Positions 28,140-30,430 of a stretch of DNA of 64,000 bases are shown one piece after another. A program made the position numbers and the translations under genes. Origin of the DNA: Candidatus Latescibacterota bacterium. GTDB lineage: Bacteria > Latescibacterota > UBA2968. How positions within the stretch are numbered: position 1 is the first letter of the stretch; the number at the start of each line of letters is the position of its first letter. Location of the stretch: contig OZ240241.1 in NCBI GenBank assembly GCA_965198115.1, positions 1,280,001 through 1,344,000 on the forward strand, given 5' to 3'. The notes below the pieces were generated by a model that worked only from the letters and a program-made list of their open reading frames with translations, made no database searches and was not told where the DNA came from.

Positions 28140-30430
28140 ATGCCTTCATCTCCCCTGATCGCCGGTCTCGACGTCGGGACGACCAACATCAAGGCTCTGA
28201 TCGCCGAGCCTGATGGCACGGTCGTTTCTCTGACGTCACGACCCACCCCTGTGCACCACCCGAGTACCGGGCGAGCGCACTACGAGCCCGAGGAAATCTG
28301 GTCGGCCGTCTGCGACGTCCTCAGGGCTGCCACCTCTACGATCAGCGACACGAGCAGAATCACGGGGATTGCCGTGGCCAGTGTGGGCGAGACCGGTTTT
28401 CCGGTCGATGTGGACGGAAATCCTACACACCACGCTATCGCCTGGTTCGACACGAGGAGTGAGCCGCAGGCAGCGTGGGTCAGAGAGCGGATCGGTTCGG
28501 AACGTATCTATCAGATCTGTCGAATGCCGGTGAAACCGATCTTCGGACTGTGCAAGCTGCTCTGGATTCGGGACAACGCACCGGACGCTTACGCCCGCAC
28601 AACTTCCTGGCTGAACACGGCCGACTACGTGGCGTTCCTACTTTCCGGGGAAAAAGCCTCGGACCCGTCGCTCGCCTCCGAACCCTCCTCTTCGACATCG
28701 CGGCCGGAGATTGGTCATCCTACATCGTAGAGCAAGCCGATCTGCCGTCGGATATTCTCCCGCCGCTTCGGCGGTGCGGAGAGGCGATCGGGAACATCCT
28801 CCCTCGTGTTGCCGAACAGACCGGCCTGCCAACGACCTGCCGCGTGGCCGTGGGGGGGCACGACCACGTCTGCGGCGCACTGTGCGTGGGGGTCGTGGAG
28901 CCCGGGGACGTGCTGAACTCGCTAGGCTGTGACGCCTTGCGATAATTCTCCGCCCAGCTTAAGCTATTCGCAGAATAGGCAGAATCGTTTCAATACGGTT
29001 AACAGTGGAGACCGTTCCCTAATGAGTTGAGGGTCACCTAAGATCTGGCGGCCATGCGACATAGTGCCATAGGAGTACTTACAAGGCGCAACGGCCAAAA
29101 GCGGTTGTCGGACCTACGCCTGATGTCCCTTTCTTTACGCGAACGCGTTTGGCACATTCCGGGGGATCGGGACGCGAAACGCTCTCGACCTCCGACGGGT
29201 CCGCCATCGGCAGCACCGCCAGGGAGACGGCCGATTTTCTACCCCGCTTCGCCATTTTCGGGAAGCACCTTCAAAGCCGCCTTGTCGACAGACGCAAGCT
29301 CTTGTTTTTGAACTGGTTTAAGTGTTTCCGACACCTGAAAAACCCCCCTTTCGTCGACAACGGCCGCGATGCGCCAGTCCGGGACTGAAATTAGGACGGA
29401 TTAGCAAAAGAAACGGGACATGACCGGTCTCCGGTCGGACGGCCACAGGTTTTCCGCACCCCCCTATGCCCGCTGGGACCTGGCCTGGCCACGTCTTGAG
29501 CCTAATCGGTCGAAACGCGCTATTTTCGCGGTTCGAGAGCCTATTTCTCGGGCGTGTGGGAAAATGAAAAGGGCGCGGTCTACATCGGAACGCCCAGAGA
29601 GTTCATCCCCCTTATCTCCGGGTCGTCAGTTCTTGGTGCGTGAGAATGCGAATAGCGTAATCTGGGCGGGAATCTATCGTAAGCCGTAACAGCTAGGCAC
29701 CGCAGAAGCCGTCTTCCTATCGACCCTCGAGCCCATCGACGAACCCGAACTCGGCGATCAGGGCTATAGCGTCGGAGGTCACGTCGCTTGGGACCGGTAT
29801 TATGCTCTGGGTGGCCTCTACTCGTCAGGCGGATGTGTAGATTGGGTATCCTCCCTCCTCGGGGGACTCGACCGGGAAGACTTGCTCGATCGCGCGCAAC
29901 CGGTGCCTCCGGGGAGTCGAGGCGTCACGTTTCTGCCCCATCTCTGGATGTTGAATCCTCCCTACGGTGACGCGCCTTCACGAGCCGCATTCGTCGGTCT
30001 GACGGGAGACACAGATCAGGCGTGTCTGTATCGATCCGTCCTCGAAGGCATCGCTTTCGAGTCGCATCTTTGCCTCAACGGCCTGACACGTGTGGGTCCC
30101 ATCGATCGCATCCTTGCCATCGGGGGATCCACTCGCAATGACCTGCTCATGCAGATCAAGGCGAGCGTCTACGGCGGACCCATCACCGTCGTGAAGACAG
30201 AAGAGGCCGTCGCCCTAGGAGCGGCGATGTTGGGTGGTCTCGGGGCCGGCGTCTATGCCGATATCGAGGATGCGATCAACCAGGTCCGAATCGAAACACG
30301 CAGTGTAGACCCCGACCCTGTGATGGTTCAGCGATATGCCGAACTCTTCGAGCACGTATATACGCACGTGTATCCATCCCTCACGGACTTGAATCGACGT
30401 ATTCACGCGGCACAGAGCGATCCGGGGTAG
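28140..30430 (+). pseudogene. FGGY carbohydrate kinase (xylulokinase-like), frameshifted near 28680 and interrupted by a 764-bp element
   Basis: GLDVGTTNIK, AWFDTR, GGHDHVC. LNSLG|TAEA is rejoined on removing the insert. SVLEGIAF, IGGSTRN, ALGAAMLG follow. Confidence 0.92.
28928..29691. mobile_element. Non-autonomous (MITE-like) element, 764 bp, TGT...ACA ends, no transposase
   Basis: About 45-bp imperfect terminal IRs (37/46 identical, counting one flanking base). Direct repeat GCTAGGC at 28921-28927 and 29692-29698. Host frame restored on excision. Confidence 0.88.

What the first reader, a model, noticed from the sequence alone, without database searches (positions are those of the whole stretch)
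28921..29698. 764-bp transposase-less element with long TGT...ACA inverted repeats and a non-coding interior
Seen: it sits in the FGGY kinase at LNSLG|TAEA, bounded by about 45-bp imperfect IRs and the direct repeat GCTAGGC. The duplication could also be read as 5 bp with CTGT...ACAG ends or 3 bp with GCTGT...ACAGC ends. Each IR contains two related sub-repeats about 22 bp apart (CTTGCGATAATTC/CTTAAGCTATTC; CTTACGATAGATTC/ATTACGCTATTC). The ~670-bp interior has no credible ORF but holds an IHF-like site (AAACAAGAGCTTG, minus strand, 29295-29307) between inverted TTGTCGAC/GTCGACAA motifs, plus short hairpins such as GACCGGTCTCCGGTC. The ends match none of the five IS families in the window. Established: TG...CA ends with reiterated transposase sites typify IS21, Tn5053 and Tn7-like DDE elements. 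Inference: an undescribed non-autonomous transposon, large for a MITE, whose cargo may be a structured RNA, a recombination site or a promoter module mobilised in trans.
Basis: partly seen in the sequence, partly recalled or inferred. Interest (0 to 1): 0.7.

Follow-up and report, generated by a model that had tools for sequence, protein, structure and literature searches.

The report
Mini-Mu transposon carrying phage packaging sites
This 764-base gene-less jumping element, present in 18 copies, has the ends of a Mu-like phage wrapped around a DNA-packaging (cos-type) site and a broken packaging-gene start from an unrelated phage, so it likely borrows one phage's transposase to jump and would let another phage package it, with neighbouring host DNA, into virus particles.

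Summary
Real: 28928-29691, TGT...ACA, 46-bp inverted repeats, 7-bp target duplication (exact in 12 of 18 full copies). The ends match those of complete 40-kb Mu-like prophages (27-28/46 identical). A frameshifted transposase of that family lies between two identical copies that moved 11.3 kb as one unit. The interior is not a structured RNA. Read right to left it is the cos region of an HK97-like phage plus the first 32 codons of a terminase small subunit. A profile built from 13 outside phages ranks the resident prophage's cos first and element copies at 18 of the next 20 places genome-wide. The stub belongs to phrog_12559, whose genes follow the same motif and precede terL. A second, weaker cos-like module lies nearer the right end. 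Copies differ most at the predicted cohesive-end bases. Best reading: a natural mini-Mu 'transposable cos cassette' needing two helpers. Anatomy is shown; transposase pairing, cos cleavage and packaging are inferred. Mu and B3 duplicate 5 and 6 bp, and a distant family member 6 bp, not 7.

The parts
28921..28927 (+). Left copy of the 7-bp target-site duplication
28928..28983 (+). Left Mu-like end: TGT, transposase-site-like repeats at positions ~9-20 and ~32-43; interior sequence found elsewhere without this end starts at 28984
   Evidence: end alignment; contigs of 3 studies start at 28984
28984..29159 (.). Unassigned captured segment downstream of the terS stub; occurs outside the element in other metagenomes and (from 29057) in an island at C1:8402803
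29160..29255 (-). First 32 codons of a phrog_12559-type terminase small subunit (ORF runs on to 29079 in unrelated sequence)
29256..29400 (-). cosB-like spacer: inverted GTCGAC motifs (29282-29289, 29353-29360) around an IHF-like site (29295-29307); swapped for other alleles in some copies; role inferred
29401..29470 (-). cos module B: G-run (29464-29459), ACCG (29428-29425), variable predicted cohesive-end core (about 29424-29415), then a T-rich tract that matches the first bases of phage contigs that start just before terS
29550..29615 (-). cos-like module A (weaker): G-run 29611-29607, ACCG 29579-29576; resembles the resident prophage's cos upstream half and phage D3's left end; may be degenerate
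29623..29691 (-). Right Mu-like end (46-bp inverted repeat plus ~23 bp); seen with a different interior in another study
29692..29698 (+). Right copy of the 7-bp target-site duplication
28140..30430 (+). Host FGGY-type sugar kinase gene interrupted by the element (also broken upstream near 28700)

Best explanation
The element is a gene-less mini-transposon made of two Mu-like phage ends around a cos-type packaging region and a terS stub from an unrelated HK97-like phage, and it likely uses two helpers: a Mu-like transposase to insert and a cos terminase that would package it and adjacent DNA. SHOWN: ends, 7-bp duplications, 18 copies, end homology to Mu-like prophages, cos-type anatomy, terS stub, allelic variation at the predicted cohesive end, and an 11.3-kb unit bounded by two identical direct copies and one duplication. 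INFERRED: (1) the DUF3102-A transposase family found inside that unit is the mobiliser, supplied by a now-lost prophage; (2) a phrog_12559-type terminase binds and cuts module B, starting packaging leftwards through the element into flanking DNA; (3) DNA between two like cos sites would re-circularise after injection with one hybrid copy, and replicative transposition of that copy gives the observed cointegrate; (4) recombination with related cos regions of satellites swaps the specificity cassette.
For: Ends: 27/46 and 28/46 identical to the G108 prophage tail end, reached by 5-8 per million of 393,152 positions; same RCGATAA register in ends from G108, G168, G169 and G004. A 41-bp end pattern, built from the element and G108 ends, hits 3 of 168 phylum genomes; reversed controls 0. 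G108 genes: terminase, portal, protease, repressor, DUF3102, A, B. The only Mu-like genes found in the host are DUF3102 + A inside the composite. Composite: 0 differences between its two copies, the only identical pair of 17 aligned; junctions and the empty site with 7 shared letters are seen in short-read contigs. cos: region between HNH and terS of the resident prophage aligns to modules B and A with scores 47 and 42, against at most 39 in 2998 of 3000 random windows. A profile from 13 outside phages ranks the resident cos 1st and element sites 18 of the next 20 among ~16.8 million positions; module B scores >=17.6 in 17 of 18 copies. HK97 and D3 record ends show the same grammar. terS stub: 37 distinct viral ORFs start with the same motif, 34 have a terL homologue downstream, 3 of 3 tested are phrog_12559, and similarity extends beyond the search seed (0-9 of 5000 shuffles). 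An independent ~660-bp version in another study keeps both ends and diverges exactly from the ACCG of module B to the terS start. Cloned cos sites make plasmids transferable, and a PICI carries two cos sites (PMC6739421, passages).
Against: No packaging or cleavage data. No helper with the matching terminase is in this genome: the single resident cos prophage has a phrog_83 terS and a 10-nt core, module B a 12-nt core between the symmetric AC...GT bases. ACCG-to-terS spacing is 173 nt against 48-81 nt in phages. No complete parent with these exact ends was found. The local transposase is frameshifted near residue 455 and no B gene follows; it is only 39% identical to the G108 protein. The one complete relative with measurable flanks (G168, about 30% transposase identity) duplicates 6 bp, not 7. 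Recombination among copies is widespread and shows no clean hot spot at the cut site. The composite can also arise by composite transposition or from any circle.
Confidence: 0.55

Rival explanations
1. Mini-Mu MITE with inert cargo: two Mu-like ends captured a piece of a cos phage or satellite by accident; the cos and terS stub are fossils and the element spreads only within the chromosome by transposition.
For: terS is truncated; no matching helper here; the same cos region lies as debris in islands at C1:8396846, 8400662, 8403224; 1 of 18 copies has a damaged module B and 3 of 18 a damaged module A; general recombination explains the mosaic.
Against: Module B is intact in 17 of 18 copies while carrying at least three different cores; two cos-like modules of different type sit in tandem; an independent version in another study swaps exactly the core-to-terS cassette and keeps the rest.
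Confidence: 0.28
2. Packaging decoy: the scattered cos sites are functional but are kept because they divert terminase and heads to host DNA and lower the burst of cos phages; transfer of the element is a by-product.
For: 18 dispersed copies with several core alleles; satellites use cos and terminase interference (PMC6739421, passages).
Against: 7 of 12 single insertions tested interrupt fully open reading frames, as expected of a selfish element; no protective data; one site per 0.5 Mb is few beside a replicating phage.
Confidence: 0.1
3. The ends belong to an unidentified IS21/Tn5053/Tn7-like or other TGT...ACA transposon rather than to a Mu-like phage.
For: 7-bp duplication is not the 5 or 6 bp of Mu and B3 (PMC8705779, passages); the genome holds other rve-type transposases including an IstA-like pair; no parent with identical ends found.
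Against: No other element in the genome has similar ends; the best outside matches are the exact termini of Mu-like prophages whose transposase family has its only local member between two copies.
Confidence: 0.07

Closest known systems
Bacterial MITEs (non-autonomous IS derivatives; PMC11389934, passages)
   Same: Short, terminal inverted repeats, target duplication, no transposase, multi-copy, moved in trans.
   Different: Ends derive from a transposable phage; 750-820 bp; carries cos-type packaging modules, whereas the review treats MITEs as hitchers of intragenomic mobility only.
Transposable phages Mu, D3112, B3 and engineered mini-Mu (PMC8705779, passages)
   Same: TG...CA ends with repeated sites, A-type DDE transposase with DUF3102 upstream, host DNA moved between two direct copies.
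   Different: 7-bp duplication instead of 5 or 6; natural and gene-less; interior comes from an unrelated cos phage. Laboratory mini-Mu vectors with lambda cos exist (recalled, no call).
Gram-negative cos PICIs such as EcCICFT073 (PMC6739421, passages); PICMI (as described in PMC11389934)
   Same: Two cos sites in one element, altered cosB-like region, reliance on helper terminase.
   Different: No integrase, replication or interference genes; inserts at many sites by transposition; about one-fifteenth the size.
HK97/D3-type 3' cos region with phrog_12559 terS
   Same: G-run, about 27 nt, ACCG, short core, T-rich tract, then terS start.
   Different: About 110 extra bases with inverted motifs and an IHF-like site before terS; terS cut off after 32 codons; no HNH or terL.

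Membership tests
MITE | Terminal inverted repeats and target duplication | tested here: met
MITE | No transposase; multi-copy | tested here: met
   18 full copies of 751-823 bp (one 3598 bp with two IS inside)
MITE | Cognate transposase acting in trans | tested here: inconclusive
   Candidate family identified by end homology; local gene frameshifted; no parent with identical ends
Transposable (Mu/B3-like) phage derivative | Ends homologous to transposable-prophage termini | tested here: met
Transposable (Mu/B3-like) phage derivative | 5- or 6-bp target duplication | tested here: not met
   7 bp; distant relative G168 gives 6 bp; G108 flanks are rearranged
Transposable (Mu/B3-like) phage derivative | Replicative transposition (cointegrate) | tested here: inconclusive
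   One cointegrate-like unit with identical direct copies; 13 simple insertions
Transposable (Mu/B3-like) phage derivative | A, B and virion genes | tested here: not met
   None in the element; only DUF3102 + A elsewhere in the genome
HK97-like 3' cos site | Conserved G-run/ACCG grammar directly upstream of terS | tested here: met
HK97-like 3' cos site | Staggered cleavage by terminase and initiation of packaging | not testable with these tools
   Only contigs, no virion reads
PICI / phage satellite | Integrase, excision and replication module | tested here: not met
   No such ORF in the element
PICI / phage satellite | Helper-dependent packaging | not testable with these tools
   Sequence anatomy only
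IS21 / Tn5053 / Tn7 derivative | Ends shared with an autonomous member | tested here: not met
   No other such ends in the genome; no match in plasmids or phages; ISfinder itself not available
Structured ncRNA cargo | Rfam match or folding beyond shuffles | tested here: not met
   expression not tested

The most novel reading that the evidence does not exclude
A new class of phage satellite reduced to cis signals only: a natural, transposable cos cassette that hijacks a Mu-like transposase for insertion and unrelated cos terminases for packaging, switches helper specificity by swapping its cohesive-end cassette, and turns arbitrary chromosome segments into in-vivo cosmids that re-integrate as cointegrates; its parent would be a transposable-phage lineage with a 7-bp target duplication.
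Probability: 0.4. Interest if true: 0.9.

Novelty: new variant of a known kind. Interest (0 to 1): 0.75.

Why it matters
MITEs are regarded as intragenomic passengers, and cos phages as poor transducers because host DNA lacks cos. A MITE that scatters cos sites would join the two: it gives a gene-less element a route between cells and lets cos phages move host DNA from any site where it lands. It also supplies natural mini-Mu ends and a candidate transposase family with a 7-bp duplication for a phylum without genetic tools, and a sequence profile with which cos-carrying hitchhikers can be sought in other genomes. The papers I searched describe no such element (listings and abstracts, open-access library only).

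Tried and rejected
Structured RNA: one Rfam hit at E 4.3 only; whole-element z -2.15/-2.57 vanishes once the inverted repeats are removed. Promoter/terminator scan: 0 and 0. Element DNA not found in 60 relatives, genome contigs, plasmids or phages; end and central patterns gave 0 in viral contigs. A 17-mer of module A gave 6 viral hits, none in a cos context: chance; blastn of module A against phages gave only E 5 noise. A third cos module near 29211 scored 5.5: rejected. A recombination hot spot at the cut site: four-gamete incompatibility was 46-65% left of it, 9-34% right of it, 49-66% across it, so inconclusive. tblastn/tblastx of the stub against phages and the first viral set gave nothing; the Atlas gave no hit for the stub or the 177-aa island ORF; the homologue search returned only the same DNA from another assembly. 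The HMMER search of representatives could not be run. G108's duplication could not be measured. The whole-genome repeat catalogue was too fragmented to list IS ends. Four times the 10,554-bp copy spacing approximates the 42.8-kb resident prophage, but almost any short unit would fit, so I give it no weight. Earlier-findings look-ups returned nothing.

Full report
OBSERVATION. The element is at window 28928-29691 (764 bp), begins TGT and ends ACA, and has 46-bp imperfect inverted repeats. Removing it and one copy of the flanking repeat restores the FGGY kinase frame. The host genome (8.43 Mb, one contig) holds 18 full copies of 751-823 bp, one swollen to 3598 bp by two IS insertions, plus three partial ends. 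The duplication is 7 bp: exact in 12 of 18, one mismatch in 1, shared by 2 as a composite, absent in 3. Of 14 target sites, 7 fit N-S-W-N-W-S-N against 5.3% background; the pattern was chosen after seeing the sites. In 7 of 12 single insertions tested the empty site gives a fully open frame, so genes are being disrupted.

THE ENDS ARE MU-LIKE. Two copies (C1:1426120 and 1436674) lie in direct orientation, differ at 0 of 794 positions (the only identical pair among 17 aligned) and bound an 11,348-bp unit flanked by one 7-bp repeat. Short-read contigs of a run that may be the source sample cover both inner junction regions, and uninterrupted copies of the target IS skip the unit with 7 shared letters. 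Inside are an ECF sigma factor, a 1069-aa RNA-polymerase-like ORF, IS debris, and DUF3102 followed by a 460-aa DDE transposase. Its homologues are about 538 aa and up to 60% identical; the local gene keeps D154, D240 and E276 but is frameshifted near residue 455. An alignment search hit 7 of 168 phylum genomes. In G108 the homologue lies in a 40.8-kb prophage with terminase, portal, protease, repressor, DUF3102, A and B. Both G108 termini were located. They match the element ends in register: 27 and 28 of 46 for the tail end, 22 and 27 for the early end, where 5-8 per million of 393,152 positions reach 27-28. The same register holds in a complete 40,029-bp prophage in G168, one end in G169 and two solo ends in G004. 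A 41-bp pattern built from the element and G108 ends hits only G000, G108 and G004 among 168 genomes, with 0 for the reversed control. Against a simple fit: G168 duplicates 6 bp, Mu 5 bp and B3 6 bp (PMC8705779, passages); G108's flanks are rearranged; no B or virion gene of this family is left in the host; no parent with identical ends was found.

THE INTERIOR IS A COS REGION. RNA and promoter readings fail. A profile of the central alleles gave a weak outside hit at C1:663.7 kb, which lies between an HNH gene (with a HicAB pair inserted) and terS-terL of a 42.8-kb resident prophage. That 300-bp region aligns to two places in the element read right to left, with scores 47 (module B) and 42 (module A); 2998 of 3000 random windows scored at most 39, and the two higher ones (112, 215) were not inspected but are probably element copies. 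The ends of the HK97 and D3 records show the same grammar: G-run, about 27 nt, ACCG, short core, T-rich tract; HK97 is a 3' cos phage (PMC5557969, passages). For an outside test I took 38 viral loci with relatives of the resident terL and 3 phylum terS loci. A regular expression, written after seeing the motif, hit upstream in 20 of 41 loci, against 5 on the opposite strand and 8 inside terL. I dropped 7 near-duplicates and 2 off-position hits and built a profile from 11 plus HK97 and D3, with neither the element nor the resident prophage. Over about 16.8 million positions it ranks the resident site first and element sites at 18 of the next 20 places (17 module B, 1 module A). Module B scores at least 17.6 in 17 of 18 copies, module A at least 15.7 in 15 of 18; a third module is not supported.

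THE TERS STUB. 173 nt after the ACCG of module B, the minus-strand ORF at 29255 starts MAKRGRKSA. Its only PHROG match was a terminase small subunit, phrog_12559, at E 0.23. A back-translated scan gave 43 viral loci and 37 distinct ORFs; 34 have a terL homologue downstream, and all 29 with enough upstream DNA show a G-run/ACC-type site 48-81 nt before the start. Three tested are phrog_12559 at E about 1e-42. Similarity runs past the nine-residue seed to residue 32 (0-9 of 5000 shuffles for five proteins) and then stops. Eight contigs begin within 70 nt of terS, as expected for physical left ends; several begin with the tract that follows the variable core of module B, and that 13-mer occurs 8 times in the host, 7 in element copies and 1 in a related island. 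This places the predicted cut in about 29424-29415, where copies carry at least three alleles.

BEYOND THIS GENOME. Words of the element occur in 23 runs of 10 studies. Of 4 runs from other studies laid on it, one holds a 733-bp contig with both ends in which 170 bp, from the ACCG of module B to the terS start, are replaced by 75 others; three hold the interior from 28984 without the left end; one holds the right 69 bp with another interior; all four hold the central 55-80 bp in other contexts. The same cos region, with other alleles, lies in islands of the host at C1:8396846, 8400662 and 8403224, and a truncated copy sits in an integrase-plus-terS island at C1:5976 kb. The interior was therefore captured from a cos phage or satellite. 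The sigma/RNA-polymerase-like cargo occurs at about 90% identity in another study on a 5445-bp contig whose aligned part holds no element.

MECHANISM. Shown: a gene-less unit of Mu-like ends plus cos region that has transposed many times and once moved 11.3 kb. Inferred: a Mu-like A protein from a lost prophage moves it; a phrog_12559-type terminase would cut module B and package leftwards into host DNA; DNA between two like sites would circularise with one hybrid copy and re-insert as a cointegrate, which would give identical direct copies, one outer duplication and unmatched inner flanks, as observed. The resident prophage is not the matching helper for module B (different terS family and core length), though module A resembles its site. 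Recombination among copies is general and does not single out the cut site. I put functional packaging at 0.55, inert captured cargo at 0.28, decoy defence at 0.10 and a non-Mu parent at 0.07.

COMPARISON AND VERDICT. It meets the definition of a MITE, works like a natural mini-Mu but fails the 5/6-bp criterion, and resembles cos PICIs in cis signals while lacking their genes. EcCICFT073 carries two cos sites and cloned cos makes plasmids transferable (PMC6739421, passages). A 2024 review lists MITEs as intragenomic hitchers (PMC11389934, passages). Marine encapsidated elements mostly encode integrases (PMC9618062, passages). Five searches found no cos-carrying MITE or natural mini-Mu of this kind (listings and abstract starts). 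Verdict: real, a new variant of a known kind, with a 0.4 chance of being a new signal-only satellite class; interest 0.75.

Noticed in passing
L034:5406-9187 (C1:1427405-1431186): ECF sigma factor followed by a single 1069-aa ORF with RNA polymerase beta (Rpb2_3, Rpb2_6) and beta' (Rpb1_2) domains, carried inside the composite; about 90% identical copy in another study. A compact fused polymerase-like gene of unknown role.
   Followed up: partly
G108:C2:4131971 to C1:33336; G168:C219:22409-62437; G169:C208: Family of 40-kb Mu-like prophages; in G108 late genes diverge from a central repressor, one end starts TAT rather than TGT, and a second partial copy is present. G168 has a 6-bp duplication.
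   Followed up: partly
G004:C1:364609 and 2568124: Two solo ~154-bp ends close to the element's right end, with a hairpin inside, and no partner end or transposase nearby.
   Followed up: partly
G000:C1:641601-684468 (L135, L136): 42.8-kb HK97-like prophage in a tRNA gene with a HicAB pair inserted between HNH and cos.
   Followed up: partly
L031:6800-13600 (C1:8396800-8403600): Island with three related cos regions, ParA/ParG-like genes and a 223-bp insertion with a ~10-bp direct repeat in the start of the terS stub; probably debris of satellites.
   Followed up: partly
L033:5700-14000 (C1:5973700-5982000): PICI-like island: tyrosine integrase, two terS-like ORFs, and a truncated element copy with its own cos allele.
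   Followed up: partly
G000:C1:117762-118008, 4614919-4615130, 5660750-5661089: Scattered 95-97% identical fragments of the Mu-like transposase 3' end, two with the same frameshift, so the remnant was once multi-copy.
   Followed up: no
G000 whole genome: Extreme IS load: several families at 60-240 copies, many nested.
   Followed up: no
C1:1426914-1427051: Inverted 138-bp left-end fragment directly abutting the right end of another copy: insertion of the element into itself.
   Followed up: no
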